A stretch of DNA of 63,722 nt, the filler included, from an uncultured Methanoregulaceae archaeon (GTDB lineage Archaea > Halobacteriota > Methanomicrobia > Methanomicrobiales > Methanospirillaceae): the NCBI GenBank assembly GCA_964530035.1. It is 3 parts of 3 records of this genome, joined end to end, with 100 filler letters (N's around TTAATTAATTAA, not from the genome) between each part and the next. Parts side by side here need not be neighbours in the genome. Positions count along the whole stretch, not along the records: positions 51,584 to 63,722 come from CAZGXZ010000067.1; 2 more parts are not named here. One strand, written 5' to 3'. Both the position numbers and the translations under genes were made by a program. This document shows, piece after piece, positions 17,392-63,385 of this stretch. Numbering within the stretch: position 1 is the stretch's first letter; each line of letters opens with the position of its first letter. The notes beneath the pieces are model-generated. The model did no database searches. It saw only the letters and a list, made by a program, of their open reading frames with translations, and was not told the DNA's origin.

Positions 17392-19987
17392 TCACCGGGG
17401 CGGGTTGACCACGATACAGTACCTCTTTTCGGCAGTATCTATCCCAAGCGGGTTCTGACAGGTCAGCCTGACGGTATAGGTGCCATTGTACTCGTACAGG
17501 TGTTCAGGGTCATTCTCGATGGAGTAGTGGTTGTCGCCGAAGTCCCAGAGGTGGGTGAAGTCACGGGTCGAGTTGTTGTAGAACCTGACTGACAGGGGGA
17601 CGGTGCCGACAACGATTGAAACGTTTCCTGCCGGTCCGCTGGTAATGAAATCAGCCACCGGCGGCCCTGATGGCATGATCTTCGTCGGTGTCGGAGTCAC
17701 GGTTACTGTGGGTGTCGGGGTTACTTCCGGAGTGACCGTGGGGGTTGGAGTAAACTCGGGGGTCGAGGTCGGTGTCGGGGTGAGGGTAACGGTAGGTGTA
17801 GGAGTTACCTCGGGAGTTGCGGTTATCGTAGGAGTCGGGGTTACTTCCGGAGTAAGAGTGGGAGTTGGGGTAACCTCCGGGGTCGAGGTCGGTGTCGGGG
17901 TGAGGGTAACGGTAGGTGTAGGAGTTACCTCGGNNNNNNNNNNNNNNNNNNNNNNNNNNNNNNNNNNNNNNNNNNNNNNNNNNNNNNNNNNNNNNNNNNN
18001 NNNNNNNNNNNNNNNNNNNNNNNNNNNNNNNNNGGGTTACTTCCGGAGTAAGAGTGGGAGTTGGGGTAACCTCCGGGGTCGAGGTCGGCGTCGGAGTCAC
18101 AGTAACGGTGGGGACCGGGGTGGCATCGGGGAAGAGCTGGGTGTGCATCGCGGAGGCGTTCACCCGTCCGAAACCGAACTCGTTGTTCTTACCCGGTGTC
18201 CCGAGGTGGTCTGCCGAGGAAAACAGGGAGTCCCTGACCTCATCCCTGCTCTTTGAAAGGTTCGCACTCCAGATGAGGGCGGCAATCCCGGCGGCATGCG
18301 GTGCCGATGCACTGGTCCCGTAGAACGGGGACGGGAACCCTCCGGCCCCGGTCACGGAAACACCATCGACGCCGATGACATCAGGCTTGGTACGGGACTC
18401 GGAAGGACTGATAATGGTCACCGGTCCTTTCGAGGAGAAAGACTCAAGGGTGACCGGGTCATCGGCAGGAACCGCTCCCGCTGCGACTACGCCTTTTGCT
18501 GCCGGCTGGCCGAAGATGGAGTCATCCGGGACGATGTTGATAGCATAGACATAGGCACCACCAGACCCATAGGTATATACTTCAAGGTTACGGCTAGATG
18601 CAAGTCCTCCGTAGTTATTAACCCATATGTACCGGTAATTTTCAGTTAGGTTGTCATTGGTGTATGAGATCCATTCCAATGGATTTTGAGACCCGTCCTG
18701 CAAATTGTATGAATAGGCAAGGACGCTTCCGGACGCATTCGTGAGCTCGACGTCATAGTCGTTGAAAGACATACCCCAGAGATCGTTCCATTCGAGGACA
18801 ACCCATATTGAAGAGCTGGTTGGCATGAATACTACGAGATATGGGATACTTCCGTCTCCACTGAAGTCATGATACGTATATCCAGCAAGTGGGAAATAAT
18901 CGCCCTGGTAGTGTGCCCTGCTCACATAAGCAGATGAACTCCTTGGCCACCCTGAGTTACCAGCCGAAGAGATGTAGAGGACAGGGAGGGTCGAGACCGT
19001 GTTATTGATATGAGTGGCAACAAGCCCGTCCTGGAAAAAAGGTTCAATGGTCCAGCTTATATCATCCACGATGACGGTGCAGCCAGCAGCCACGAGTGCG
19101 TCCACAGCCTGGTTGAACTCCACCGTTGAACCGCCGCAATCATGGAAGTAAAGTTCGGCGCCGGGAGCAAGGTCGTGGATGATTTCAAGCATTGCCGTGC
19201 CTTCGTCACCACCATACGAATCCCGCAAAATATGGAGACCTGGTGGGAGATCCCCACTGGCTATCGCTGAAGCGTTGTTGTTTGCACCATCAGATATCAC
19301 ACCGACCTTGATTCCCGTCCCATTAATCCCGAACGTATTTCTTACATACTGGGCGAAATGCACGACATCGCCCTCTGTTGTTACAGATCCTGTGTTCACT
19401 ACCGGTCCATAATTGACGACTGGCGGATAGATAGTACTAATCGATTGAACGGAGGGAGAAAACGCAAGCTTCCTTGTGTCCGATACACGGACCCATGCAG
19501 CAGCGATCCTTGCCTGGCGGTCATATCCAAGCATCTCCTGGACATACGGAGTGATATCAAGGGGGTCCCCCTCTTTTCTGATCTTGATCTCAACCTTGAC
19601 CTCAGGTTCTGAAACCCCGTTTTTCAGGAACCCTGCAATGTTCTGTCGGGGTTCGCGGATTATTCCATCAGAATACATGGTGTTTACTAGGTTCACCGGC
19701 TTCTGGCCTTCAGGGAAGGGTGAAAGGCCCGTAAGCAAACGGAGATCGGTCGACATCTTGGACGCAATGACCCGGCTCGCGATTGTCTCAGGTGTTCCAC
19801 CAGCTGTTGAGGGCTTCAGGAGGGAATAATTTGGGATTTTGGGAGTAGGAACATTGTGGACATCAGGCCCAATGGCAGAAGGGCTGGAAGAACCCACTCC
19901 CCCTGCCGACCCGGTACATGGCACCTGCGTGGCAAGCAGGAAAAAAATGAAGGTAATGGCCGGTATCGTTGTCTGCAACGGCTTCAC
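17392..19987 (-). CDS. Secreted S8/S53-like serine protease with prodomain, Pro/Thr linker and C-terminal PKD domain; spans an assembly gap
   Basis: [28 protein letters not shown] and [10 protein letters not shown] motifs; PKD motif WDFGD at the C-terminus. ORFs 17651..19987 and 17392..17700 join across the gap. Confidence 0.88.
17686..18116 (-). repeat. Pro/Thr linker repeat (about 30-bp units, 120-bp higher-order period), with gap 17934-18033
   Basis: GGTCGAGGTCGGTGTCGGGGTGAGGGTAACGG at 17761 and 17881. Confidence 0.9.
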
Positions 19988-32380: not shown

Positions 32381-32665
32381 ATGTACATCCAGGCACTCCC
32401 CGAGTTCGGACTCGTCGTCGACCCGATGGTCGGAATCCTCACCTCGGCAGGCGAGAGCTACGCCCCGGTCCTCGAGAAGGTAGACGTGCTCGAAGCAGTA
32501 TCAAACGACCTCGTCAACATGCTCTCAGGAGAAGGGAACTACCTTGCGTCCTTCCCGAACCGTGAGAAGACCCTCCCGTTCGCCGGCAGCATGACGTCAT
32601 TCTGGTACGGTATCGCAATAGGACTCTTCCTTGCTGGAATCGTGGTGTTCCAGCTGGCGAGGTGA
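32381..32665 (+). CDS. mtrB: Mtr subunit B
   Basis: [15 protein letters not shown]...SFPNRE; position in the operon. Confidence 0.93.
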
Positions 32666-32670
32666 AAACC

Positions 32671-33399
32671 ATGGCAGACAAGAAATCACCAGCAAGCGGG
32701 TGGCCGATCGTCCAGGGTGACTTCCATTCGGGAGACGCCCAGAGCCCGGTAGCCGTCGTCACCATGGGTTCGCACCTTGACGAGAAGGGGCTCTGCGACG
32801 CAGGCGCCGCCATGACCGGTTCCTGCAAGACCGAGAACCTCGGCCTTGAAAAGGTCATCGCCAACATCATATCCAACCCCAACATCAGGTTCGTCCTCCT
32901 TGTGGGGACGGAAGTCAAGGGCCACCTGTCAGGCCAGACCTTCGCGGCGCTCCACAAGGGCGGCGTTAAGGACGGGCGTGTCGTCGGTGCGGAAGGAGCC
33001 ATTCCCTTCATCGAAAACCTCGATGATGCTGCCATCAAGCGGTTCCAGGAACAGGTCGAGATGGTCAACATCATGGAGACCGAGGACCTCTCCGTCATCA
33101 AGGCCAAGATCAACGAACTCAAGGGCAGGGACCCCGGAGCTTTCGCCGGCGACCCGATGGTCATCGAGGTCAAGGAGGCCGGTGGGGCCGGTGGTGAAGA
33201 AGCGGGTGGCGAAGTGCGGCCCCTTTCAGGCGAGCTCGCACTGATAACCGCCCGGATGAAGATCATCGAGCGGATGGTCACTGATATCGGGTACCGCGAC
33301 AAGTTCGCGTCCGGTGTCTACGCCGGCAAGATTGAAGGTCTCATGATCGGTCTTGTCGTTTCGTTCATACTGCTCGGCTTCGTCTTAACGGGGGTCTGA
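32671..33399 (+). CDS. mtrA: Mtr subunit A (corrinoid protein)
   Basis: [25 protein letters not shown] and GAIPFIENL motifs; C-terminal TM helix. Confidence 0.97.
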
Positions 33400-33401
33400 A
33401 A

Positions 33402-33602
33402 ATGGCAGAAGAACAGAAGACAGCAGGACCTATCAGGATGGCGGCGATCGAAAACACCGTCGAAAACATCCGGTACAAGGCACAGATCCTCGCACGGACC
33501 AACAAGCTCGACTCTGCGATATCAGGGTCCGGCATTACGGGGTTCTTCCTTGGAGCAGCGATTGCGTTCGTGCTGATCGTCATACCGGTCCTGGTCGTGT
33601 GA
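33402..33602 (+). CDS. mtrF: Mtr subunit F
   Basis: IRYKAQILAR...KLDS followed by a TM helix. Confidence 0.92.
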   Translation: MAEEQKTAGPIRMAAIENTVENIRYKAQILARTNKLDSAISGSGITGFFLGAAIAFVLIVIPVLVV

Positions 33603-33613
33603 GGTGAAGAAAC

Positions 33614-34357
33614 ATGGCAGATAAGAAATCACCAGCAAGCGGGTGGCCGATCGTCCAGGGTGACTTCCACTCGGGAGACGCCCAGAGCCCGGTAGCCGTC
33701 GTCACCATGGGTTCACACCTTGACGAGAAGGGGCTCTGCGACGCAGGCGCCGCCATGACCGGTTCCTGCAAGACCGAGAACCTCGGCCTTGAAAAGGTCA
33801 TCGCCAACATCATATCCAACCCCAACATCAGGTTCGTCCTCCTTGTGGGGACGGAAGTCAAGGGCCACCTGTCAGGCCAGACCTTCGCGGCGCTCCACAA
33901 GGGCGGCGTTAAGGACGGGCGTGTCGTCGGTGCGGAAGGAGCCATTCCCTTCATCGAAAACCTCGATGATGCTGCCATCAAGCGGTTCCAGGAACAGGTC
34001 GAGATGGTCAACATCATGGAGACCGAGGACCTCTCCGTCATCAAGGCCAAGATCAACGAACTCAAGGGCAGGGACCCCGGAGCTTTCGCCGGCGACCCGA
34101 TGGTCATCGAGGTCAAGGAGGCCGGTGGAGCGGGCGGAGCCGCCGCGTCGGCAAGTGCCAACCCGCAGTTCCTGGAGATCGAGCGGCGCCTCGATGCTAT
34201 CGAGAAACAGATAGAGTTTGTCGATGCCGAGATCGCCCAGCGTGTGGGGAGAAAGATCGGACGTGATATCGGGATCCTCTACGGTCTTGTCGCAGGACTG
34301 ATCGTATTCGTGTTGATGATCACGATGTACACGACCCTGATGAAATTCATTGGATAG
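33614..34357 (+). CDS. mtrA: MtrA-MtrG fusion (second MtrA domain plus MtrG membrane anchor)
   Basis: N-terminal ~172 aa identical to MtrA; C-terminus [11 protein letters not shown]...[13 protein letters not shown] is the MtrG signature. Confidence 0.93.
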
Positions 34358-45790: not shown

Positions 45791-46386
45791 AGTCCCCCGA
45801 TATCAAGCGACTTCCTGATGACCTGGCTGATGGCTATGGAACAGATGAAGTACCAGAGCATCCAGACCGGAACAATCGCCAGAACCGGGTTTGTAAGGTT
45901 CTGAGAACCAAAAAACGGCATGATGATGGTTTCATTGATGGTTGACAACCGGTAGATGAGGAAAAAGAACAGGGGGATGGTGAGGACAAGGATGTAAGCC
46001 ATCGGCTTGAACTGTTGCTGCGACATTTCCAGCTGGTCCTTCATCATCTTGTCCTTTTTCGCGTCCAGCTTCTTGATCCTTTTTTCATCCTGGGAGAGCA
46101 TCGCTTCCCGGTACTCCTTCTGGAACTCCTTCATCACTTCCTGGTTTTTCTTCATTTTCTCGTAATCGATGGTGTATTTCTGGATTATAGACGAATAGAG
46201 TGCAGTAATCGATGAGAGAATGATGATGAGGATGTAAAAGGGGATCTGGTACGTATCGATCAATGGCCCGAAGACCCCGTTCAGGGCTATTCCGATGGAA
46301 TCCCTGACATTCTGCATACTGGAGATCAAAATCATCCCGAATGCAACGAGAAGGGCGATATACCCCCCGTTTTTCCCTAAGTCCAT
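45787..46386 (-). CDS. DUF106 / EMC3-TMCO1 (Oxa1 superfamily) membrane protein
   Basis: TM helices, coiled coil, QFKPM and WYFICS motifs; conserved position between adk and cmk. Confidence 0.9.
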   Translation of the reverse strand: MDLGKNGGYIALLVAFGMILISSMQNVRDSIGIALNGVFGPLIDTYQIPFYILIIILSSITALYSSIIQKYTIDYEKMKKNQEVMKEFQKEYREAMLSQDEKRIKKLDAKKDKMMKDQLEMSQQQFKPMAYILVLTIPLFFFLIYRLSTINETIIMPFFGSQNLTNPVLAIVPVWMLWYFICSIAISQVIRKSLDIGGL

Positions 46387-46393
46387 TATTGTG

Positions 46394-46969
<576 letters not shown>

Positions 46970-48403
46970 TCATTCCTTGCCGAAGAACGTCCTCATGAAG
47001 GGGTACATTTCCATGATCTGCTGGCTCGCAATCTCCTCGTACAACCGGTAGGTGATACTGACCGTCAGGAGGAGCCCGGTACCGCTGACCGCTCCGATTA
47101 CTCCGAAGAGGTTCGCGAATACGGAGAGTACCCCGATGAATACACCACCTATTACCGTTACCCGGGGGATATATCTTTCGAGATATTTCTCGAGGATCTG
47201 TGGGTTACGACGATACCCGGGAATCGACATGCCGCTGTTCTGGATCTGCCGGGCCACGGCAGAAGAATCGAGACCTGCGGTCTTGACCCAGAACAGGGCG
47301 AAGATGGCGCCCCCAACGACCATGAAAACGATATCGACACCCATCCTGATGAGGACCTCCCATGGAGCATGCCCGAGGTCGGTTATCCACCACATCCAGT
47401 CCGATGGACCGTTTATGGGGGCGAGGTAGTACATCAGGCCGGATACCGGGGTCTGCCCCTCGAATTTACCCAGGATGGTTATGCCCATGTTTGAAAGGAA
47501 CATTCCAAGCATCTGGATGTTCGCCTGCAGGACCCGCACCAGGATCATCGGCAGGACGCTGGCATAGATCAGCTTCACGGGGAATCGTGCCCGTGCACCA
47601 CGCACCTGTGCATGGGCGAGCGGGATCTCGATCCTCGTGGACTCGACATACACGACGATCAGGAAGATCGCTATCGTTGTTATGAACGCCAGGAGGTCAG
47701 TACCGAAGTACTGGAGGTAATTGCCTCCCGATATGCCGATTGCTATCAACCTCGGGAAGAACCCTACGGGGTAGGGGTCACTGACGGCCGTCCAGTTGAT
47801 AAAGCCGTTTACGAGTGCCTGGGATATCCCGGCTATGATGAAGAGACCGACACCGGAGCCTATACCCCACTTGGTCACCACTTCGTCCATGAGGAAGATG
47901 AGGACGCCTCCAAGACAGATCTGGAGGAATATGATGAATGACAGCAGGAAGAGGTTACCACCGAAAAATGCGTTTGCTATCGCAGGGTCGGGCTTGAGGA
48001 ACCCGCCGACGAGGTTCGGAGCCGCCTCGATAATGATCATGGCGAAGATGAAGACCTTCTGCAGGCCCATGTACATGACCTGGCCACGTGCCTCGGATGT
48101 ATCAATATGGAGGATATCCGCTCCCTTTAACAGCTGCAGGACGATGGAGGCCGTGACGATCGGACCGATACCGAGCTGGATGATCGAGCCGCTCGAGCCG
48201 GCAAGAAGGGCCCGGTAATAGAGGAAAATATCCTGGGAGTCCGGTGCAAGCCCGAAGAGGGGGATGTTCGAGAGGATGAAGTATATGATGAGGATTACCG
48301 CCGTCCAGATCAGCTTGTTCTTGAAGTGAACATGCCCTTCCGGTGGCTTTACGGCAGGCATCTTCGCCAGGATTGGTTCCATTGAGTCGAGGAAGCTTCC
48401 CAT
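46970..48403 (-). CDS. secY: Preprotein translocase SecY
   Basis: LGIGPIVTASI, KWGIGSG and GTGLLLTV motifs. Confidence 0.98.
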   Translation of the reverse strand: MGSFLDSMEPILAKMPAVKPPEGHVHFKNKLIWTAVILIIYFILSNIPLFGLAPDSQDIFLYYRALLAGSSGSIIQLGIGPIVTASIVLQLLKGADILHIDTSEARGQVMYMGLQKVFIFAMIIIEAAPNLVGGFLKPDPAIANAFFGGNLFLLSFIIFLQICLGGVLIFLMDEVVTKWGIGSGVGLFIIAGISQALVNGFINWTAVSDPYPVGFFPRLIAIGISGGNYLQYFGTDLLAFITTIAIFLIVVYVESTRIEIPLAHAQVRGARARFPVKLIYASVLPMILVRVLQANIQMLGMFLSNMGITILGKFEGQTPVSGLMYYLAPINGPSDWMWWITDLGHAPWEVLIRMGVDIVFMVVGGAIFALFWVKTAGLDSSAVARQIQNSGMSIPGYRRNPQILEKYLERYIPRVTVIGGVFIGVLSVFANLFGVIGAVSGTGLLLTVSITYRLYEEIASQQIMEMYPFMRTFFGKE

Positions 48404-48428
48404 TGTGTGTCACCCGGAAACTGGGGGA

Positions 48429-48854
48429 TCAGGAGGTCAGTGCCTGACCGCCCAATCCCTCGATCTTTGCCTTTGCCTGCTCCGAGAATGCCCGGGCAGT
48501 GATCTGCATCTTCCGCGTAACCCTTCCTCCGCCGAGGACCTTGTCAATTCCTATGCGGGATGCATCAAGGGAAACGGTGTCACCGTCCATCATGGCATAT
48601 CCCATGGCCACCAGGTCAGGAACGGCCTGGTCAATGTCACCGATGTCTATGACATCATCGACGGGCTTTGCAATACTGATGAACCCGTTTTTCCCGTTGT
48701 GGACCTCGCCTGCCAGGAGGAAGTGGGTAAACCGGTGGTCACGGTGGCCGGCACGGCCCCTGCCTCCCCTGTTCCCCGCGCCTCTCCTGTTCTTATGGGT
48801 CCCTCCTCCACAGGTCCGGGATCCCCGGTATTTTGAGCGTTTGTTAACCGGCAT
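48429..48854 (-). CDS. rpl15: 50S ribosomal protein uL15
   Basis: RGSRTCGGGTHKNRRGAGNRGGRG. Confidence 0.96.
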   Translation of the reverse strand: MPVNKRSKYRGSRTCGGGTHKNRRGAGNRGGRGRAGHRDHRFTHFLLAGEVHNGKNGFISIAKPVDDVIDIGDIDQAVPDLVAMGYAMMDGDTVSLDASRIGIDKVLGGGRVTRKMQITARAFSEQAKAKIEGLGGQALTS

Positions 48855-48861
48855 TCCAGAT

Positions 48862-49323
48862 TCACCTCATCGCATGCAGAAGATGGTTGATCTCGTTTCC
48901 ATAATAACCGAGAGCCCCTCCCTGCTGGAATGTCCTCTTTGTCGTCTGGTAACCCTTTCTCGGCGGGTGAAGCCTGAGCACGGGTTTCAGACCGGGCAGG
49001 TCCGAGAGCCGTGCCTCGCCGCGGGACAGAGCCTCGGCAAATCCTCTGATGCCCTCATACGTCGAGTTCTCCCGGACATACTCGTCACTCAGGTGACGGT
49101 CACCGACAAGCCGGCCCCGGGTCTTGAGGATTGCTTCGATCGTAGCGATATCAGCCTCGCCGTATGCGACATAGTCCTTGACCTTACGGATCATTCCGGC
49201 ATAGGCCGGGGTATCCGGGACGAAGACGCAGTGGTTGATGTGATGCAGCCTCAGCATCTTCAACGTGTCCTTGATCTCGCTCCGTGTCTTCACGGTTCCG
49301 CGGACCTGAACCACAGCATACAT
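48862..49323 (-). CDS. rpl30: 50S ribosomal protein uL30
   Basis: AVVQVRG, TLKMLRL and RLHPPRKG motifs. Confidence 0.96.
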   Translation of the reverse strand: MYAVVQVRGTVKTRSEIKDTLKMLRLHHINHCVFVPDTPAYAGMIRKVKDYVAYGEADIATIEAILKTRGRLVGDRHLSDEYVRENSTYEGIRGFAEALSRGEARLSDLPGLKPVLRLHPPRKGYQTTKRTFQQGGALGYYGNEINHLLHAMR

Positions 49324-49324
49324 C

Positions 49325-49945
49325 TTACCGCTTCCCCCCGCCGATCCTGACCATGTTCGTGGCCTTTAAAGCGTTGAAGGTTGCCTTTGCAAAGTTAATC
49401 GTCGTACGGGTCTGACCGCGCGAGAATACCCACACGTCACGGATGCCTGCAAGTTCCAGAACCTTCTTTGAGACGTCCCCAGTCACAAGCCCGATCCCCT
49501 GTGGTGCGGGTTTCAGGGTGACCCTGACGCTCCCTGCGGAGCCTTCGACCTGCATCGGGATCGAGTGATCGGTGCCGCAGCCGCATTCCCAGCTGCCGCA
49601 GCCACGGTTGACCCGGATCAGGTTCGTCTTTGCATCGGTGATCGCCTTCTTGATAGCATCGCCGACCTGGTTGTCCTTGCCCTGTCCGAACCCGATGTAC
49701 CCGTTCCGGTTGCCCACTACGACAACCGCCCTGAACTTGACCCTCCTTCCGGAGTCGGTCATCCTCTGGACCATCTCGATATCAAGGACCTCATCCACGA
49801 GGTCGGGGATGAACGTCTCGACGATCTGGGGCTCCTTGATGGGTTTGCCACTGAGGAGGACATCATCGATGCTCGCGATCTCCCCGGCAGCGACCAGTTT
49901 GCCGAGTCCTGTAAGAGGGACCCACTCTTCCTTTTCGTATGCCAT
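49325..49945 (-). CDS. rps5: 30S ribosomal protein uS5
   Basis: [13 protein letters not shown] and RGCGSWEC motifs. Confidence 0.97.
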
Positions 49946-49946
49946 G

Positions 49947-50474
49947 TTACTTCAGCTCCCTCATGATCGCATCAGCCGTTTCCTTGACGTTTGCAACGAG
50001 ATTTGCAGCTCGTTCAGGTGCATAGGCGACGATGTGCTCTCCCCTGATGCGTTCCTCGGACGGCAGTATGTCCTCTCCATGCGGGACATCGAGGCCGGCT
50101 TCGACCGCACCCTTCAGTGCGGCAAAGACCCGTGCGCCCTTCTTGGCGCGGTGAAGCCCGATATCCAGCACAGCCGCATTATTTTCGGCGTTGAGGGCCC
50201 GGACGGCAAACAGCATGCCCGTAAGGTATGCCGCAGGCGTTGATGACAACCCTCCGGCATATCCGAACTGGACGAGCTCCTTTGAATTTGCTGATACCAG
50301 CGTGTAATCGCCTTCCATTGCGGCAGTCACCATCTGGACGATGATATGCCGGTTGGTCTTCCTGACCACCATCCGCGGGCGGTCGCCTGATACAAGACCT
50401 GTCCGTTTCCTGTAATTGGTCTTTCCATCCCGGCGTCTCCGGAACGGAACAAAGTAATTGGTCCCGTATGCCAT
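49947..50474 (-). CDS. rpl18: 50S ribosomal protein uL18
   Basis: [14 protein letters not shown] and AAYLTG motifs. Confidence 0.96.
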
Positions 50475-50475
50475 T

Positions 50476-50928
50476 TCAGCGCCTCCCTGCGAGCAGTTCG
50501 ACATGAGCTTTCAGGTGGGCCACGTTCCTGAACTGTCCACCGGCAGCGCGCCGGTAGAGGAGCCGGTATGAATGCGGGTCAAGCGTCCCGTCAGCTCTCA
50601 GCTCGACCAGTGTCTTCCTGATCGCCCTGATCTTCTGTATCCATGCCCTCTTGGAGGGATTCCTGGCACCCGCGGCTCCTTTCCTGCGCCCAGGTCCCTT
50701 GCAGTGGCCATATGCACGCTTGGCTATACGCGCCCTGGCCCTTCCACGGCTGACACCGACCTTCTGCCGGTCATCGATAGCGCCTTCCCCGATGAGACCG
50801 CGAACGTCCTCGCGTGAGATGGCGTCCTTGATGTCGGAGATCCTTTCCGGGTCGAACCAGACGCGGTTCACCCCGCACTTGAGGAGGCTTGCAGCAATGC
50901 GCCGCTGGGAGGTGATATCAGTCATCAT
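50476..50928 (-). CDS. rpl19e: 50S ribosomal protein eL19
   Basis: [20 protein letters not shown] and GPGRRKG motifs. Confidence 0.96.
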
Positions 50929-51361
50929 CTTCCTCCTCGGTCTCTTCTGACGTCTCCGGGACCGCCGCCTTAACCGGTGCAGCCCTGATGTTCAGGACCC
51001 TGAACCCTGCCTCTTCAGCCTTCTGCTGGATATCAAGGCGCTTTTTCATCCCGACAGTCCCGCCTATCCTGACCGCATGGACAGCAGGGTCGAGTGCCCC
51101 GATGTCGGCAGGTGTGAACACCAGGATATCGGCGTAACCACTTGGGTGGAGGTTCCTGACCGCAATGGGACTTCCGTACCCGGGAGTCGGGAGCGGGCCC
51201 TTTGCCTTTTTCTGAAGTCTCTGCTTGTTATGGTTGCCTCTCGGCCTTCTCCAGGATGAAGAGATCTGTTTCTTCTTCCCGAAACCGTCCCGTTTGAACC
51301 GGGCTCCTTTCCGGTCACGGACGCGTAACAGTCGTCTTGTTTCACCCACCATCGCCATCAC
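50918..51361 (-). CDS. rpl32e: 50S ribosomal protein eL32
   Basis: WRRPRG, GYGSP and HPSG motifs. Confidence 0.95.
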
Positions 51362-55557: not shown

Positions 55558-58182
55558 ATGGCACGAAATGTTGGGATCTGGTGTACGTTCCTCGTTTTGT
55601 GTGTCGTTTTAACCGGTGCTATTGTCACGGCGGCACTTTCAGGCGGGGGGCCATCCGGGAAGGGAGCGGGGCGGTATCTTGAAGCGACGACTACGCCGCT
55701 TGCAAGCCTTGCTTCATGGAATATACTGACCGTTCCGTGTCCCTGGAACGAGACATGGTGCGTGACCGATGACCCGCCGTTGCACAAGTACCGTATCCTC
55801 GTCGACCTTGGCCATGCCGAACGGATTAAGATCGACGGGATGACGTCATCGAACCTCGACAAGTCCTCGAACTCGAGGATCTTCGACTGGCAGGACTGGG
55901 CCAAGGACATGAGGGCACAGGGGTACGAGGTCAGCGTCATAACCAAGCGGCCGGTGGCTGCTGCCGACCTTGTCAACGCCGACCTTTACATCGTCGCCCA
56001 GCCAGACAAGGGGAAGAACGGCCCTGTCTATTTCACGAAAGATGAAAAGGAGGCAATAGCATGCTTTGTCCTCCGTGGCAACACGCTCCTCGTGATGGCC
56101 CAGCAGTTCATGGGCGGAAAGGACCGGACGACCTATACCGGGGACATGAAGACGACCTACGCCTCCGCCGATGTCATCAACGACCTCCTCGAGGGCATCC
56201 ATGTCGAGGGGAGGTTCACCGAGGGCAAGGTATCAGGCAGCGTCCTTGACCTGATGGACTCGGACAACGCCGCCACGCAGGTCTTTACCGGGACACCGCC
56301 CGACATCTGGCTCCCGGCAGGGAACCTGAAGCCGGAGATGAAGTCCAATACCTTCGCATATTTCCACGGGCTTTCCATCGTGCCCGATACCGTGGACTGG
56401 CTCGTCCGGGGTGACAGCACGACCTTCACCTCGCCGAAGAACACGAAGTACGCACCGGTGGTCCAGCCCGCAGGGAGCCAGCCGGTTGCCATCGGGGTCA
56501 ACGGCCTCGGGTGCGGCAGGGTGTACCTCTACGGTGACCCGTCCGCATGGCAGAAGGACTCGTACATCGGCAAGGTCTACTCCGAGCAGAAGTACCACGA
56601 GCAGGAGGCCGCCCGGGTGCTCGTCAGCAGGATGCTCTCCTTCAACCGGACCTGCGAGCCGTGCGAGTCGCAGGCACAGCAGCAGCCGGTACAGACCCGT
56701 ACGGTGACCACCCGGGCCACGCCGTACCGGCCGTTCGACACCCCGACAACGACCAGGACCATCCTGACACGGACCCCCACCCGCACACGCACGCCGACGG
56801 TGACACCCACGGTGACCCCGTTCGGGGACTGCAGCAGCTGTCTTGTCGACTGCAACCAGGGGACGGACGAGGCAAGCCTCATGGGCCGTATGGAGTGCTA
56901 TCTCGGGTGCACCGGGACCTTCGAAGGGTCGATGAAGTGCCGGTACTGCCTTGACCGTGCCCGTGCGTCCGGTGAGACAACGCTCGAGGGCGTCACGAAC
57001 TACTACTCGCAGTGCCTCATCGACAGTGGCTGCACCTGCCCAGAAGAGGACTGTAACACGTGTATTGCCGGCTGCGGTGACAACACCGCCTGCCAGCTGA
57101 GCTGCTATGACGAAAACAACCGTCCGTGCCTCACGACCTTCACGGACGACTGCACGTCGTGCGTCAGGAACTGTGGCGACAGGGTGGACTGCCAGCTGGC
57201 CTGCACGGATGGCGGGCAGCCCTGCATACCGCCGTTCCAGCTGGACTGCAAGACCTGTATTGACCGGTGCGAAGGAAATGGTGAATGTGCGACGCAGTGT
57301 GTTGACGAAAACAACCAGCCCTGCATCAACCGGGGGACGATCAGTTGCCCGAACGGCTATTCGGCCTGTTACCAGAACGTGAATGGCGGGTATGACTGCT
57401 ATGCTTCCGGCACGGGGCCCCTGCACGCATGTGCGTTCGGCCAGACCATGCTCTGTACGAACGACAACAATGACCCCTGCAGGACCTACTGCAGCTGCGT
57501 TGACAGCGGGCCGCTCTCGTACGACATCGATGCCTGTCCCGTGACGTCCATCCAGACGATGTACAGGGACGAGTTCGAACAATGGGTCCGCCTCCCGCTC
57601 GGTTCGGGACTGGACTGTCCGAACGGTGTCACGCCTGAATGCAAGCTCGATACCGACACCTGCATAGAATACTGCGAATGCCCGCCGGCCTCGGCCGTCT
57701 GGACGCCGACGCCGACACCGACCGGTGCATACGCATGGACCCCCACACCGACCCCCACGGGTGCCCAGTCCTGGACGGCCACCTCGGAGTGCCAGGCCTG
57801 TTACTTAGGCTGTACCCAGAAGACGACCTCTTCGGCGGGCAGTAAGGACACCGAGGCAGTATTCCCGACCAATGCCTGCCGGAATGCCTGTGATAAAAAG
57901 TATGGGACGACTGTTCTCAGCTGCGCCTGTGCCAACAAGCCTCCGTGCGGAGAAGGGTATTTCCAGACGGTATTCACGAACAACATGACCTGCGCCTGTC
58001 TCCCCAGCCAGACCACGGGCGGGGGTTCTTTCGACTGGACGTCACTGAGCAGCCAGTGGACAGGGCACTATACTGGTTCACCACAAACGGGAAGTTCAAC
58101 CTGCCGGTATACCTGTGACCGATGTTGTGATCCTTCGGGCTACAAATGCTGGGACTGCAACTGCAGGAATGTCTGCAGTTAA
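55558..58182 (+). CDS. Secreted protein: GATase-like (DUF4350/GIFT-like) domain, Thr-rich linker and long Cys-rich C-terminal region
   Basis: Signal peptide; ILVDLGH, FTKDEKEAIACFVLRG and GRVYLYGD motifs; dozens of patterned cysteines. Confidence 0.8.
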   Translation: MARNVGIWCTFLVLCVVLTGAIVTAALSGGGPSGKGAGRYLEATTTPLASLASWNILTVPCPWNETWCVTDDPPLHKYRILVDLGHAERIKIDGMTSSNLDKSSNSRIFDWQDWAKDMRAQGYEVSVITKRPVAAADLVNADLYIVAQPDKGKNGPVYFTKDEKEAIACFVLRGNTLLVMAQQFMGGKDRTTYTGDMKTTYASADVINDLLEGIHVEGRFTEGKVSGSVLDLMDSDNAATQVFTGTPPDIWLPAGNLKPEMKSNTFAYFHGLSIVPDTVDWLVRGDSTTFTSPKNTKYAPVVQPAGSQPVAIGVNGLGCGRVYLYGDPSAWQKDSYIGKVYSEQKYHEQEAARVLVSRMLSFNRTCEPCESQAQQQPVQTRTVTTRATPYRPFDTPTTTRTILTRTPTRTRTPTVTPTVTPFGDCSSCLVDCNQGTDEASLMGRMECYLGCTGTFEGSMKCRYCLDRARASGETTLEGVTNYYSQCLIDSGCTCPEEDCNTCIAGCGDNTACQLSCYDENNRPCLTTFTDDCTSCVRNCGDRVDCQLACTDGGQPCIPPFQLDCKTCIDRCEGNGECATQCVDENNQPCINRGTISCPNGYSACYQNVNGGYDCYASGTGPLHACAFGQTMLCTNDNNDPCRTYCSCVDSGPLSYDIDACPVTSIQTMYRDEFEQWVRLPLGSGLDCPNGVTPECKLDTDTCIEYCECPPASAVWTPTPTPTGAYAWTPTPTPTGAQSWTATSECQACYLGCTQKTTSSAGSKDTEAVFPTNACRNACDKKYGTTVLSCACANKPPCGEGYFQTVFTNNMTCACLPSQTTGGGSFDWTSLSSQWTGHYTGSPQTGSSTCRYTCDRCCDPSGYKCWDCNCRNVCS

Positions 58183-58769: not shown

Positions 58770-59267
58770 ATGCACAGGGTAGTTGACATCTCCGGGTTGC
58801 CCGATTCCCCGGCGCTGTACGTCTTTAAGGGGGGGAAGGGAACCGTCACGTTCGTCGCCTATGTCGGGACCGCGGACCATCTGCGGAACGCGGTCAACCG
58901 GCACATGAACAAGAGGGACAGCCACGAAGTGATGGGGACATCGGCCGTGTCCCTGAACCCGGACTACATCACCGGGCTGGACTGGTGGGAGCACCCTTTC
59001 TTCTCCGCATCCGGCTCTCTCGAGGCGGCGGCAGCACTGGCCACGGACATCTTCGACCCCATCATACGGAGCAGGACAGCCCCGTCCAGGAGAGCAAAGG
59101 ACCTCCTCCAGGACCGGGTGTTCAAGCAGGAGATCACCCAGCTGCTGAAGGGTTCTCCATCGGGGTCGATGTCGTTTCCGTTCTTCCAGGACCTCGTGGA
59201 GAGGATAACCAGCCTGGAAACCGATGTGGAGGAGATCAAGAAGAAGCTTGAGCCGGCCGGGGAATGA
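58770..59267 (+). CDS. Hypothetical protein, degenerate GIY-YIG-like N-terminus and coiled-coil tail
   Basis: LPDSPALYVF...AYVGTADHLRNAVNRH resembles the UvrC-type LPxxPGVY...YVGxAxNLRxR pattern. Confidence 0.6.
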   Translation: MHRVVDISGLPDSPALYVFKGGKGTVTFVAYVGTADHLRNAVNRHMNKRDSHEVMGTSAVSLNPDYITGLDWWEHPFFSASGSLEAAAALATDIFDPIIRSRTAPSRRAKDLLQDRVFKQEITQLLKGSPSGSMSFPFFQDLVERITSLETDVEEIKKKLEPAGE

Positions 59268-59384: not shown

Positions 59385-59520
59385 TGAGGGTATTACTCGA
59401 ATCCCTTGCCGGAATACGTGTATGATGCCTACATGAAGTATTGGGGGCCGGTTGGATTATTATTAGAGAATGATTAGCATTGATGACCACATCATAGTTC
59501 AACACATTTTTATAAAAAAA
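59385..59520 (+). promoter_or_regulatory. Conserved upstream element (dyad plus TATA), copy 1
   Basis: CCGG-AATAC-GTGTA...TACAT-gaa-GTATT-ggggg-CCGG at 59409-59451, then CACATTTTTATAAAA. Confidence 0.65.
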
Positions 59521-59569
59521 GAGAGAACCTCACGAAATAGGCCTATTTGGCTAGTAGTGAGGTTGTATC

Positions 59570-60643
59570 TTGAAAAAAACGATGGTAATCGCCCCGATAT
59601 TGTTGGTTGTTTTCGTATTGATCAGCGGCATGGCCGCGGCGGACCGTCTGCCGAACCAGACTCCTGAAAACCAGGTGTTCAGCATGGCCTCCTCGGTTGA
59701 GGCAATTGGGATGTATTCCGGCTCACAGAGCCTGCAGTGGACGGGAGGGTATGATCCTGTTCTGGCATTTCCCTCTGATCCAACAAGCCCGATGTTCGAT
59801 GGCTACAATGGCTGGAATGGTGATTGGACGCTTCATTGGTTGATGGGTGATTGGGATTTTTATAATCAATACGGTCTTGAAGGTTATCCGGCCGGATTAA
59901 CTTTCCAACAATATCTGGCTCGTTTGCCAACAGATATGAATGTAATCCGTCCCGAGATAAGAACAGGTGCTCAAAGCCTTATTGATTATCTGAATGCTCA
60001 ATTAGGTCACGGGGGGCTTCACACCGGCATCCTCGACCCCAACGAGGTCCGTGCGACAACCGCCTATAGTGAAATGTCCGAGACAAACGGTGGCTATGTC
60101 TCCGAGACCAAGACCTTCGACCCCGACACCCGGAACAAGGCCCTTGACCTCTACAACGTCGAAGCCACCAAGACCTTCACCTACGCAACCGATGCGAACA
60201 CCGGAAGCGTAGCCCAGACGTCAGAAATGATCGCTCTCGACCTCATGGGCAGTCCGACCCGAACAGCCGACGTCATTGCCTGTCCGTTCGGACCGTCCGT
60301 GAGCGAGTTCTACCCGGCGTTCTGCAACGTGGTCTACGCTAAGTCCATGAGCCAGGGAGTGACTTCGGCAGCCCAGTCCTCCTCGGCACAGGTCAGGATG
60401 ATTGCAGCAACCGCTGACGTAGGAAGTGCCCTGAACTACAACTTCGATGTCAGGCCCGATGCATCGGCTGGAATAGGCTATGCCATGGGAACGTTCGGCA
60501 CGGAGTTCGGAGTGTCGATCAAGGAAGCCCGTGGGAACAACCTGACCCCGTCACAGACCGTGGTCTACACTGACAAGGCAACGGTTGCCGGCATGGTGGC
60601 CAAGTTCACGAAGCAGCACTCGTACAAGGGCTTCTTCGGCTGA
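59570..60643 (+). CDS. Major sheath protein (MspA)-like secreted protein, paralog 1
   Basis: TTG start, GTGAGG RBS, signal peptide ending AAA-DRLPNQTPENQVF; PAFCNVV, ALNY and SIKEAR motifs. Family call is from recalled similarity to Methanospirillum sheath proteins, not a database search. Confidence 0.7.
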   Translation: MKKTMVIAPILLVVFVLISGMAAADRLPNQTPENQVFSMASSVEAIGMYSGSQSLQWTGGYDPVLAFPSDPTSPMFDGYNGWNGDWTLHWLMGDWDFYNQYGLEGYPAGLTFQQYLARLPTDMNVIRPEIRTGAQSLIDYLNAQLGHGGLHTGILDPNEVRATTAYSEMSETNGGYVSETKTFDPDTRNKALDLYNVEATKTFTYATDANTGSVAQTSEMIALDLMGSPTRTADVIACPFGPSVSEFYPAFCNVVYAKSMSQGVTSAAQSSSAQVRMIAATADVGSALNYNFDVRPDASAGIGYAMGTFGTEFGVSIKEARGNNLTPSQTVVYTDKATVAGMVAKFTKQHSYKGFFG

Positions 60644-60645
60644 AT

Positions 60646-60670
60646 AAAACAGGGAGATATCCCCTTTTTT
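60646..60670 (+). terminator. Putative terminator
   Basis: GGGA-gata-TCCC hairpin followed by a T-tract. Confidence 0.5.
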
Positions 60671-60703
60671 CCTTCTACAACGCTCTTTTTAATGTGGGGA
60701 CGG

Positions 60704-60840
60704 TGAGGGTATTACTCGCATCCCCTGCCGGGATACGTGTATGATCCATACATGGAGTATTGGGGACCGGTTGGTGGAGTGGAAGGTGATTGATGAGCAT
60801 CGAATAATCCCATTACAACTCAACACATTTTTATAAAAAG
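60704..60840 (+). promoter_or_regulatory. Conserved upstream element, copy 2
   Basis: CCGG-GATAC-GTGTATG-atc-CATACAT-gga-GTATT-gggga-CCGG at 60728-60770, then CACATTTTTATAAAA. Confidence 0.65.
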
Positions 60841-60890
60841 CGGGGCAACCTCATGAAATAGGCCTTTTGGGCCGGTAGTGAGGTTATATC

Positions 60891-62000
60891 TTGAAAAAAA
60901 CGATACTGATCGCCTCGATATTGTTGATTGTTTTCGTATTGCTTACCGGTATGGCTGCGGCGGACCGTCTTCCGAACCAGACCCCTGAAAACCAAGTGTT
61001 CAGCATGGTTTCTTCGGTTGAGGCAATTGGGATGTATTCCGGTTCCCAGAGCCTGCAGTGGACGGCGGGGTATGCTCCTATTAGCGGATCTGCGATGAAC
61101 ATATATACCCTGGGGGGGGAGGGAGCTTGCGCTCGAATGAATGATGAAGAATATGAGCAGTTTCACTCAAGACTTGTTGCCGCAGGTGGTTCTGATACCG
61201 GTACACCTGGTGAAGGATATACCGTTTGCTCCATGAATATGCCAGCGACGCTTTATAACGTCAATGCATATGGTGATGAAAGGCAGGGATACACTACGTT
61301 TGGAGAGATTGGAGAAGGGATAACGGGGGATGGGCCCACTCAAACTCTTCAAATCTCTACCGGTCATGGCGGTCTTCACACTGGTATCCTCGACCCTGAC
61401 GAGGTCCGTGCGACAACCGCCTACTCCGAAATGTCCGAGACAAACGGTGGCTATGTCTCCGAGACCAAGACCTTCGACCCCGACACCCGGAACAAGGCCC
61501 TTGACCTCTACAACGTCGAAGCCACCAAGACCTTCACCTACGCAACCGATGCGAACACCGGAAGCGTAGCCCAGACGTCAGAAATGATCGCTCTCGACCT
61601 CATGGGCAGTCCGACCCGAACAGCCGACGTCATTGCCTGTCCGTTCGGACCGTCCGTGAGCGAGTTCTACCCGGCGTTCTGCAACGTGGTCTACGCCAAG
61701 TCGATGAGCCAGGGTGTCACATCAGCAGCACAGTCCTCCTCGGCACAGGTCAGGATGATTGCAGCAACTGCTGACGTAGGAAGTGCCCTGAATTACAACT
61801 TCGACGTGAAGCCCGATGCATCGGCTGGAATAGGCTATGCCATGGGAACGTTCGGCACGGAGTTTGGAGTGTCGATCAAGGAAGCCCGAGGGAACAACCT
61901 GACGCCTTCACAGACCGTGGTCTACACGGACAAGGCAACGGTTGCCGGCATGGTGGCGAAGTTCACGAAGCAGCACTCGTACAAGGGCTTCTTCGGGTGA
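60891..62000 (+). CDS. MspA-like secreted protein, paralog 2
   Basis: Same architecture as paralog 1; the C-terminal constant region differs from it at only 2 residues. Confidence 0.7.
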   Translation: MKKTILIASILLIVFVLLTGMAAADRLPNQTPENQVFSMVSSVEAIGMYSGSQSLQWTAGYAPISGSAMNIYTLGGEGACARMNDEEYEQFHSRLVAAGGSDTGTPGEGYTVCSMNMPATLYNVNAYGDERQGYTTFGEIGEGITGDGPTQTLQISTGHGGLHTGILDPDEVRATTAYSEMSETNGGYVSETKTFDPDTRNKALDLYNVEATKTFTYATDANTGSVAQTSEMIALDLMGSPTRTADVIACPFGPSVSEFYPAFCNVVYAKSMSQGVTSAAQSSSAQVRMIAATADVGSALNYNFDVKPDASAGIGYAMGTFGTEFGVSIKEARGNNLTPSQTVVYTDKATVAGMVAKFTKQHSYKGFFG

Positions 62001-62076
62001 AAAATAACAGGAAAAACCTCCTTTTTTCCGTCTATAACGCTTTTTTTAATTACAGGACGGGGAGGTCATTACAACC

Positions 62077-62198
62077 ATCCCCTGCCGGAATACGTGTATG
62101 ATGAACACATGAAGTATTGGGGGCCGGTGGCTTTGTGTGAGGGGGATCTCATGGGCATTGAATGACCGTAGAACAATTCAGCACATTTTTATGAAAAG
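62077..62198 (+). promoter_or_regulatory. Conserved upstream element, copy 3
   Basis: CCGG-AATAC-GTGT...ACACAT-gaa-GTATT-ggggg-CCGG at 62085-62127, then CACATTTTTATGAAAA. Confidence 0.6.
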
Positions 62199-62248
62199 AA
62201 AGGCAACCTCACTTAATCTGCCCATTAGACGCGTAATGAGGTTTTATC

Positions 62249-63385
62249 TTGGAAAAAACGTCAGTGATCTCCCCAATTTTATTAACCCTCCTCGTATTGC
62301 TCAGCGGTATGGCCGCGGCTGACCGTTTGCCAAACCAGACCCCGGAAAATCAGGTCTTCACAACAGCCTCATCGGTTGAGGCGATCGGGTCGTATTCGGG
62401 ATCACAGGACCTCCAGTGGACGGCGGGGTATGACCCGGTAACAACGAGGATGTCCGTGATGCATGTGTATGCATCTGCTACTCCCTCCCGGCTCGAGGCG
62501 GATAGTTATGGGAAGATTCACGGGATCCTTGTCAATGGTGGAGGCTCTGATAACGGCGAGATAAAACAGGGTTTTAGTTTTTGGGAACTCTCATCGATGA
62601 CTATCCCGGAGTCGTTGCTTGGAACTGTTATAGACCTGGACGGGTTCCACACTCTTGGGGACTACGCATCTTTTTTCTATTTAGATTATAATGGCCAACC
62701 CTCTCACGGATCCCATACCGTCTTTGACGTCCCTTCGATGACCGGTCATGGAGGACTCCACACCGGCATCCTCGACCCCGACGAGGTCCGTGCAACAACC
62801 GCCTACAGCGAGATGACGGAAACGAACGGTGGGTATATTTCTGAAACGAAGACATTCGACCCCGACACCCGGAACAAGGCGGTCGGACTGTTCAATGTCG
62901 AGTCCACGAAGACCTTCACCTATGCAACCGATGCCAATACCGGCAGTATCGCCCAGACCTCCGAGATGATCGCCACTGACAACATGGGATCTCCCACGGC
63001 GACTGCCGACGTCATCGCCTGCCCGTTCGGGCCTTCACAGAGCGAGATCCTCCCTGCGTTCTGCAACGTGGTCTATGCCAGGTCAATGAGTCAGGGCGTC
63101 ACATCCGTAGCCCAGTCTTCGTCCGCTCAGGTCAGGATGGTGGCGGCAGGTGCGGACACTCCAGCCGAGCTGAACTACAACTTCGACGTGAAGCCTGACG
63201 CATCAGCCGGAATCGGCTATGCCATGGGGACCTTCGGCACGGAGTTCGGAATATCAGTCAAGGAAGCCCGCGGGAACAGCCTGACACCATCGGCAACGGT
63301 TGTCTATACGGACAAGGCAACGGTCGCCGGCATGGTGGCGAAGTTCACGAAGCAGTACCAGTCGAAGTCAGGGTTCAGCCTCTAG
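62249..63385 (+). CDS. MspA-like secreted protein, paralog 3
   Basis: Same architecture with a more diverged constant region; ends QSKSGFSL. Confidence 0.7.
   Translation: MEKTSVISPILLTLLVLLSGMAAADRLPNQTPENQVFTTASSVEAIGSYSGSQDLQWTAGYDPVTTRMSVMHVYASATPSRLEADSYGKIHGILVNGGGSDNGEIKQGFSFWELSSMTIPESLLGTVIDLDGFHTLGDYASFFYLDYNGQPSHGSHTVFDVPSMTGHGGLHTGILDPDEVRATTAYSEMTETNGGYISETKTFDPDTRNKAVGLFNVESTKTFTYATDANTGSIAQTSEMIATDNMGSPTATADVIACPFGPSQSEILPAFCNVVYARSMSQGVTSVAQSSSAQVRMVAAGADTPAELNYNFDVKPDASAGIGYAMGTFGTEFGISVKEARGNSLTPSATVVYTDKATVAGMVAKFTKQYQSKSGFSL

What the first reader, a model, noticed from the sequence alone, without database searches (positions are those of the whole stretch)
59570..63385. 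Tandem array of sheath-like proteins with a fixed scaffold and a hypervariable cassette
Seen: three genes share a signal peptide, the stretch DRLPNQTPENQVF...QWTxGYxP and a ~210-aa C-terminal region starting GHGGLHTGILDP. Between these anchors each carries a different insert: 82 aa (59759-60004, Trp/Tyr-rich), 94 aa (61080-61361) and 102 aa (62438-62743). Inserts 2 and 3 are remotely related (YEQFHSRLVAAGGSDTG vs YGKIHGILVNGGGSDNG); insert 1 looks unrelated. Known: Methanospirillum sheaths are built from the amyloid-like protein MspA/SH; my family assignment rests on recalled motifs. Inference: an invariant polymerising scaffold displays interchangeable surface domains, which would diversify the archaeal sheath for virus evasion, partner adhesion or permeability.
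Basis: partly seen in the sequence, partly recalled or inferred. Interest (0 to 1): 0.8.

Follow-up and report, generated by a model that had tools for sequence, protein, structure and literature searches.

The report
Archaeal sheath genes with recombined caps
Three neighbouring genes of an uncultured methane-making archaeon encode relatives of the known cell-sheath protein, each with a different insert that likely forms the outward-facing cap; the caps were likely reshuffled between gene copies by slow recombination and matched letter for letter in the other populations checked, so this is a new member of a described family, not a fast switching system.

Summary
Observation confirmed to the base. 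The three genes are SH/MspA sheath-protein homologues: 32-35% identical and colinear with M. hungatei MspA, cysteine pair kept. The insert sits where MspA has its exterior cap. Inserts 2 and 3 are distant members of one cap family that includes the Methanospirillum cap (profile probability 95.5%); insert 1 is a separate aromatic-rich type with one clear relative. Cap diversity, tandem clusters and mixed rings are in print (PMC11576556), and this scan noted a similar cluster on other DNA (e1-6504813). Added here: signs of cap-core reshuffling (incongruent trees, caps 1 and 2 with foreign-looking codon use, a 269-bp identical tract in cores 1 and 2, a saturated cap in a syntenic Methanospirillum pair), and a probable fourth copy with an 89-codon cap missing from this assembly. 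Against 'hypervariable': cap 1 was identical in 6 of 6 runs, cap 3 in 4 of 4; one orthologous cap has dN/dS about 0.08; no silent donor cassettes were found. Verdict: new member of a known kind; virus evasion untested.

The parts
59385..59456 (+). 72-bp upstream block shared by the three gene units (copies at 60704-60774 and 62077-62128); part of the duplicated unit, likely regulatory
   Evidence: BLASTN of the genome finds only these three copies; no significant RNA fold, z 0.57, -0.50, -1.19; not seen before the other paralogs
59509..59564 (+). TATA-like TTTATAAA (59509-59516), then inverted pair AACCTCAC (59526-59533) / GTGAGGTT (59557-59564) that overlaps the ribosome-binding-like site; same layout before genes 2 and 3
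   Evidence: sequence, alignment; hairpin z -5.3 for g1, -3.0 for g2, 0.1 for g3 on windows chosen after seeing the repeat; promoter role inferred
59570..60643 (+). g1: SH/MspA homologue, 357 aa, Cys238/Cys252
   Evidence: 35% identity to MspA over 362 columns, E 5e-54; AF2 core confident, cap not
59759..60004 (+). cap 1, 82 aa, Trp/Tyr/Phe-rich, separate cap type; GC3 0.34
   Evidence: no match to the main cap family; related to the P0008 cap, z 7.7, 0 of 1000 shuffles; pLDDT under 50 over most of it; GC3 in the lowest 0.1% of 3162 windows
60071..60339 (+). 269-bp tract identical to 61428-61696 of g2 within cores that differ at 30 of 639 bases; likely gene conversion
   Evidence: 0 of 20000 permutations give such a gap
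60891..62000 (+). g2: SH/MspA homologue, 369 aa, core Cys250/Cys264, cap Cys80/Cys113
   Evidence: AF2 mean pLDDT 84.6, long-strand beta core; core 99% identical to g1
61080..61361 (+). cap 2, 94 aa, main cap family, predicted five strands and two helices; GC3 0.39
   Evidence: blocks 73-93 pLDDT; leave-one-out profile E 2.8e-23; GC3 in the lowest 0.5%
62249..63385 (+). g3: SH/MspA homologue, 378 aa, Cys258/Cys272, core of the other subtype (ends SKSGFSL)
   Evidence: 32% identity to MspA, E 2e-54; core tree
62438..62743 (+). cap 3, 102 aa, main cap family; GC3 0.53
   Evidence: leave-one-out profile E 7.2e-14; 69% to P0003 cap and 44% to P0018 cap

Best explanation
The three genes encode homologues of the archaeal sheath protein MspA/SH whose conserved beta core likely polymerises into the sheath rings and whose insert likely folds as the outward-facing cap, and the different caps likely came onto near-identical cores by occasional homologous recombination through the conserved flanks. 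The array arose by tandem duplication of a promoter-gene-terminator unit (shown by sequence). The core is held by strong purifying selection, with patchy conversion between copies (shown for g1/g2). Caps are old lineages that are moved or imported over species-level time and then kept (inferred). The capped copies would be minor subunits that decorate a sheath whose bulk may come from the cap-less paralog on contig C33 (inferred, weak).
For: Homology, colinearity and Cys pair. The MspA residues reported as exterior cap residues (T86, S144, N157) fall in the stretch aligned with the insert. Main cap family is homologous to Methanospirillum caps: hhalign 95.5%, E 1.5e-8; 17 of 70 caps hit at E<1e-3. 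Core pN 0.01-0.18 but pS 0.37-0.69 between G000 paralogs other than g1/g2. Cap groups cross core clades: cap clade g3+P0003+P0018 (SH-aLRT 100) and cap pair P0005/P0016 (57%) span the starred 24-row core clade; cap 1 relative P0008 lies outside it too; the 99-supported cap clade C27/P0017/C63a/P0015 splits into two core clades. g1/g2 cores group with the cap-less C33 gene (100/98) while carrying caps. GC3 of caps 1 and 2 (0.34, 0.39) against cores 0.72-0.75; only 2 of 2630 adjacent windows in long ORFs differ by 0.33 or more. In one syntenic Methanospirillum pair, two flanking genes have pS 0.28 and 0.33, the core 0.30, the cap 0.74.
Against: No donor was found for any cap. Low GC3 could come from a local mutational or expression effect. 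The cap tree was the quick tree with long branches, and no formal one-clade test was run. The C27/C63a core dS of 0.86 against cap 0.33 lies within the spread of neighbouring genes, 0.17-0.92. Fast drift of an unconstrained surface domain also gives low cap identity. No expression or protein data. A codon index did not single out the C33 gene.
Confidence: 0.72

Rival explanations
1. Old paralogs with fixed, specialised caps: no cap exchange; cores look alike only through purifying selection, caps drifted apart long ago.
For: Core synonymous sites are near saturation between most paralogs; orthologous caps conserved, dN/dS about 0.08; caps identical across runs; most caps homologous.
Against: g1 and g2 have 99% identical cores (pS 0.17) with unrelated caps; low GC3 confined to caps 1 and 2; saturated cap between conserved flanks in L055/L056.
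Confidence: 0.18
2. Active surface-variation system: caps are switched within populations, as in donor-cassette antigenic variation, to escape viruses.
For: A contig with g1-type flanks and another 89-codon insert stands in 5 of 6 runs as a joint and in part in the sixth; depth ratios of array pieces vary between runs, and two runs branch just upstream of g1 (weak, contigs only).
Against: The other insert lies at a depth like that of cap 1 while cap 1 stays at full depth, which fits an extra gene better than an allele; no stand-alone or template copies of caps in the 86%-complete genome; every cap is in a full ORF with its own promoter-like region; zero differences in cap 1 (6 of 6 runs) and cap 3 (4 of 4).
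Confidence: 0.07
3. Assembly chimera: the assembler joined caps to the wrong cores.
For: Cores 1 and 2 are near-identical repeats, no listed contig piece spans the array, and a fourth copy seems to be missing.
Against: Each cap with its flanks is reproduced without differences in independent runs; P0049 and P0050 from another assembly show the same sequences as g2 and g3.
Confidence: 0.03

Closest known systems
MspA/SH of Methanospirillum hungatei JF-1 (WP_011449234.1, Mhun_2271; PMC6242892, PMC10593813)
   Same: Colinear homologue, 32-35% identity; leader ending before DRLP; cap inserted at the same place; Cys pair 14 residues apart; caps 2 and 3 remotely homologous to its cap family.
   Different: MspA is the capped major subunit at one syntenic locus; here six capped and two cap-less close paralogs are spread over five contigs, the most conserved being cap-less; cap 1 is of another type.
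SH protein clusters with diverse caps in Methanomicrobiales, Methanotrichales and ANME-1 (Medvedeva et al. 2024, PMC11576556)
   Same: Tandem clusters, cap diversity among close relatives, a five-strand cap as inferred there for Methanolinea, proposed mixed rings.
   Different: In the parts I read (parts 1-4 of 6, abstract to start of references) the paper reports duplication, loss and transfer of whole genes, not recombination of caps between cores, and no within-species test of cap constancy.
Donor-cassette antigenic variation such as Treponema tprK (mechanism recalled; seen here only as a search listing)
   Same: Conserved framework with variable surface segments; gene conversion is involved.
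   Different: No silent donors found, no within-species cap variants seen, each cap sits in its own complete gene.

Membership tests
SH/MspA archaeal sheath proteins | Sequence homology to M. hungatei MspA | tested here: met
   g1 35%, E 5e-54; g3 32%, E 2e-54; colinear over about 95%; reference named
SH/MspA archaeal sheath proteins | N-terminal signal peptide | tested here: inconclusive
   Basic then hydrophobic 24-residue leader ending AAA before DRLP, in register with MspA's reported 23-residue peptide; no predictor was run
SH/MspA archaeal sheath proteins | Beta core of two six-stranded sheets | tested here: met
   AF2 models of g2 and g1 give the same set of long strands at high pLDDT; sheets were not counted from coordinates; fold also follows from homology
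SH/MspA archaeal sheath proteins | Two core cysteines (MspA Cys257, Cys271) | tested here: met
   C238/C252, C250/C264, C258/C272; invariant columns in 114 sequences; role from PMC10593813 passages
SH/MspA archaeal sheath proteins | Cap domain inserted after the first strands | tested here: met
   Position matches; caps 2 and 3 homologous to Methanospirillum caps; cap 1 not
SH/MspA archaeal sheath proteins | Polymerises as cross-beta rings in a tubular sheath | not testable with these tools
   Needs cells, proteomics, cryo-ET
Donor-cassette antigenic variation | Silent donor copies of the variable segment | tested here: not met
   All 5 profile matches in G000 lie in full genes; cap 1 occurs once; no DNA copies; genome 86% complete
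Donor-cassette antigenic variation | Variants of one locus within a population | tested here: inconclusive
   No letter differences in caps, but an extra insert between g1-type flanks that contigs cannot place
Diversity-generating retroelement | Template repeat matching the variable region | tested here: not met
   BLASTN word 7, E 0.05: each cap matches only itself
Diversity-generating retroelement | Reverse transcriptase gene | not tested
   No search was run
Integron-type cassette array | Folding attC-like site between promoterless cassettes | tested here: not met
   Shared upstream block has no significant fold (RNA parameters), occurs three times only; each gene has a TATA-like box

The most novel reading that the evidence does not exclude
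Sheath caps are a horizontally traded pool of surface modules across Methanospirillaceae: a cap is swapped in through the conserved flanks, in Methanospirillum together with the neighbouring glycosylation gene, giving sheath 'serotypes' under virus pressure, and arrays like this one expand and contract within populations to change the mix shown on the sheath.
Probability: 0.3. Interest if true: 0.62.

Novelty: new member of a known kind. Interest (0 to 1): 0.36.

Why it matters
The sheath is the outermost layer of these digester methanogens and is thought to shield them from viruses. The family and its variable caps are described; what this locus adds is sequence evidence for how cap diversity is made (recombination between conserved flanks on a species-level time scale), a second cap type, and a genus whose most conserved sheath gene has no cap, although in M. 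hungatei cap-cap contacts join the hoops. The Methanospirillum major-gene locus offers a cultured system in which cap exchange and virus host range could be tested.

Tried and rejected
Pfam and NCBIfam: 0 families for the three proteins. PDB by sequence: 0; the cited passage lists EMDB maps for the sheath. Foldseek on the g2 model: no match at E<=0.001 in PDB or BFVD; VIA-align best Z 6.7, rmsd 5.5, generic beta sheets. Viral contigs: 60 pattern hits, none confirmed. JGI metagenome scan: 1 of 168 stretches, a weak 31% match, not followed up. Cap profile against 1.84 billion representatives: 2 hits, P0005 and an unrelated repeat protein P0170 taken as chance. Cap 1 against longer proteins: itself only, 19 candidates, weak search. 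Cap 1 not found in G019, 77% complete. ESM Atlas gave no answer. Codon index did not rank the paralogs. Upstream block as structured RNA or attC site: rejected. Wholesale recent homogenisation of cores: rejected, pS mostly 0.4-0.7. P0013 cap as relative of cap 1: weak, z 1.8. Upstream GIY-YIG-like ORF as a dedicated nuclease: only weak N-terminal matches to 519-550-aa frames in 12 of 60 relatives, no full-length relative. No complex prediction was sent (filament; mixed rings already modelled in print).
Full report
Observation. Cores are 84-99% identical and inserts 18-24%. Inserts 2 and 3 are related (z 9.0, 0 of 1000 shuffles); insert 1 is related to neither. The window is three contigs joined by N; the array lies near the end of contig C67. 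Each gene comes with a duplicated upstream region (72-bp block, TATA-like box, ribosome-binding-like site) and a T-rich stretch after the stop.

Identity. A family-wide search found relatives of the core in 90 of 151 genomes and 14 of 19 genera. The protein of locus L005 is listed as WP_011449234.1, Mhun_2271, the MspA/SH of PMC6242892 and PMC10593813; it has the residues those papers number (D43, T86, S144, N157, C257, C271, K363). g1 aligns with it at 35% (E 5e-54) and g3 at 32% (E 2e-54), end to end. The insert lies against the part that holds the exterior cap residues. The core cysteine pair is kept in all three. The closest named records are titled uncultured Methanospirillaceae archaeon. 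For g1 the core is confident and the cap is not.

Paralogs. The genome holds eight close paralogs: six with a cap (g1-g3, C111, one on C8, C27) and two without (C8, C33), plus shorter distant ones. The cap-less C33 gene has dS 0.075 to its counterpart in the sister species, where eight other frames of that locus give 0.31-0.62. This fits a highly expressed major subunit or a recent transfer; a codon index did not decide it.

The caps are mostly one domain family. Of 27 capped proteins from this lineage, 24 were grouped as the main type; leave-one-out profiles were run for 4 of them and gave E 2.8e-23 (g2), 7.2e-14 (g3), 1.6e-11 and 2.5e-9, against 0.065-0.093 for the three others. The main-type profile matches the profile of 70 Methanospirillum-type caps at 95.5% probability. 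Cap 1 has one clear relative, P0008 (z 7.7), and one doubtful, P0013 (z 1.8).

Evidence for reshuffling. (a) g1 and g2 have cores with pN 0.008 and pS 0.17 and unrelated caps. (b) Their cores share a 269-bp identical tract among 30 differences in 639 bases (0 of 20000 permutations); a collapsed contig at about three times local depth covers most of it in run X13. (c) In the core tree (35 rows; two incomplete cores left out) g1/g2 group with the cap-less C33 gene (100/98), and a starred clade of 24 rows excludes P0008, P0016, P0018 and P0020; in the cap tree (22 rows, quick method; the three other-type caps left out) P0018 groups with g3 (100) and P0016 and P0020 with P0005 and kin (93). (d) Caps 1 and 2 have GC3 0.34 and 0.39, in the lowest 0.1% and 0.5% of 3162 windows, while the cap shared with the sister species (C27) has 0.81. 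(e) At the syntenic major locus of six Methanospirillum-type genomes the cap is near saturation in all 15 pairs; in the closest pair, L055/L056, two flanking genes give pS 0.28 and 0.33, the core 0.30, the cap 0.74 with pN 0.44, and the adjacent 830-aa gene 0.66 (I label that gene aglB-like from recall, untested). Among 68 of 70 such proteins, 11 of 51 pairs with cores at least 97% identical have caps under 50% identical; these are 90%-cluster representatives, so near-identical pairs are under-counted.

Evidence against fast variation. Cap 1 is spanned without a difference in 6 of 6 runs from six studies, one of which may be the source sample. Cap 3 shows none in 4 of 4; cap 2 none in two full and one partial piece, the fourth not being listed. 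The C27 cap and its syntenic counterpart are 94% identical, dN 0.026, dS 0.33; their cores give dS 0.86, suggestive of core replacement but within the spread of neighbours. Most paralog cores are near synonymous saturation, so selection, not recent copying, explains most of the 'fixed scaffold'. No silent cap copy or template was found in the 86%-complete genome.

A probable fourth gene. A 367-base contig with g1-type flanks and 265 other letters in place of 244 appears in X1, X2 and X11, as the same joint in X5, X11 and X14, and in part in X13. That makes an in-frame insert of 89 codons, the length of the P0027 cap, the only one of that length among 20 listed and the only other with QWTGGYDPV. 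Its letters were not shown, so the match is by length and flank only. Depths are 0.45-1.3 times that of cap 1, and the g1-g2 spacer piece is at nearly double depth in X14, which fits a fourth tandem copy that this assembly lacks. Contigs cannot tell an assembly collapse from a strain difference.

How it most likely works. Shown: homology, architecture, duplication, one conversion-like tract, cap constancy in the runs laid. Inferred from MspA (PMC10593813): export by the leader, polymerisation of the core into beta rings, cysteines linking rings, caps outward. Inferred here: caps moved between cores by homologous recombination at the conserved flanks; capped copies as minor subunits. Untested: any benefit of the caps.

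Comparison with print. PMC11576556 (read parts 1-4 of 6, and a two-term search of its four supplements) describes the core, diverse caps, clusters with up to 100% identity, 3-31 copies per Methanomicrobiales genome, mixed rings, and a role in virus defence and adhesion. PMC6242892 (parts 2-3 of 5) and PMC10593813 (part 2 of 6 and passages) define MspA and its structure. Three searches showed no paper on cap-core recombination; none of the three sheath papers holds the words 'hypervariable' or 'recombination' in its main text. Supplementary figures and papers outside the library may bear on this.

Verdict. Real, a member of a described family, with a described kind of variation. The additions are evolutionary evidence, a second cap type and a likely missing copy. 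New member of a known kind; interest 0.36.

Noticed in passing
window 58770-59267 +: 165-aa ORF just upstream of the array whose first 55 residues weakly resemble the GIY-YIG/UvrC N-terminal region (NCBIfam E 1.6e-4 to 0.07, far below cut-offs); no full-length relative in 60 family genomes.
   Followed up: partly
window 55558-58182 +: 874-aa protein with a leader, a weak DUF4350 match, Thr/Pro linkers and a Cys-rich repeat region; related DNA on contigs C96 (twice) and C65. Likely another surface protein family.
   Followed up: no
G000:C83:628-1350 (outside the window): About 720-bp element with roughly 85-bp direct repeats at its ends; 145 BLASTN hits on 75 contigs, 55 of them 250 bp or longer; none in the window. 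Possibly a non-autonomous mobile element.
   Followed up: partly
window 32659-33185 and 33601-34128: Direct repeat of about 528 bp, 99% identical.
   Followed up: no
window 1982-2285 and 17693-17933: Tandem repeats (about 84 and 120 bp period) next to assembly gaps.
   Followed up: no
L055-L059, L051: At the Methanospirillum-type major sheath locus the 810-840-aa gene next to the capped gene is as diverged as the cap (pS 0.65-0.81, pN 0.19-0.45) while other flanks are conserved; it looks like an oligosaccharyltransferase (recalled, untested), suggesting a co-varying surface locus.
   Followed up: partly
G000:C33:12143-12973 (L040): Cap-less close paralog with dS 0.075 to the sister species, followed by a short distant SH-like gene; candidate major sheath subunit.
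   Followed up: partly
P0104: A protein labelled Cutibacterium avidum by its source has a cap 100% identical to that of MspA; likely contamination of that record.
   Followed up: no
window 45800-51360 -: Ribosomal protein and secY-like operon on the middle contig (names recalled from motifs).
   Followed up: no
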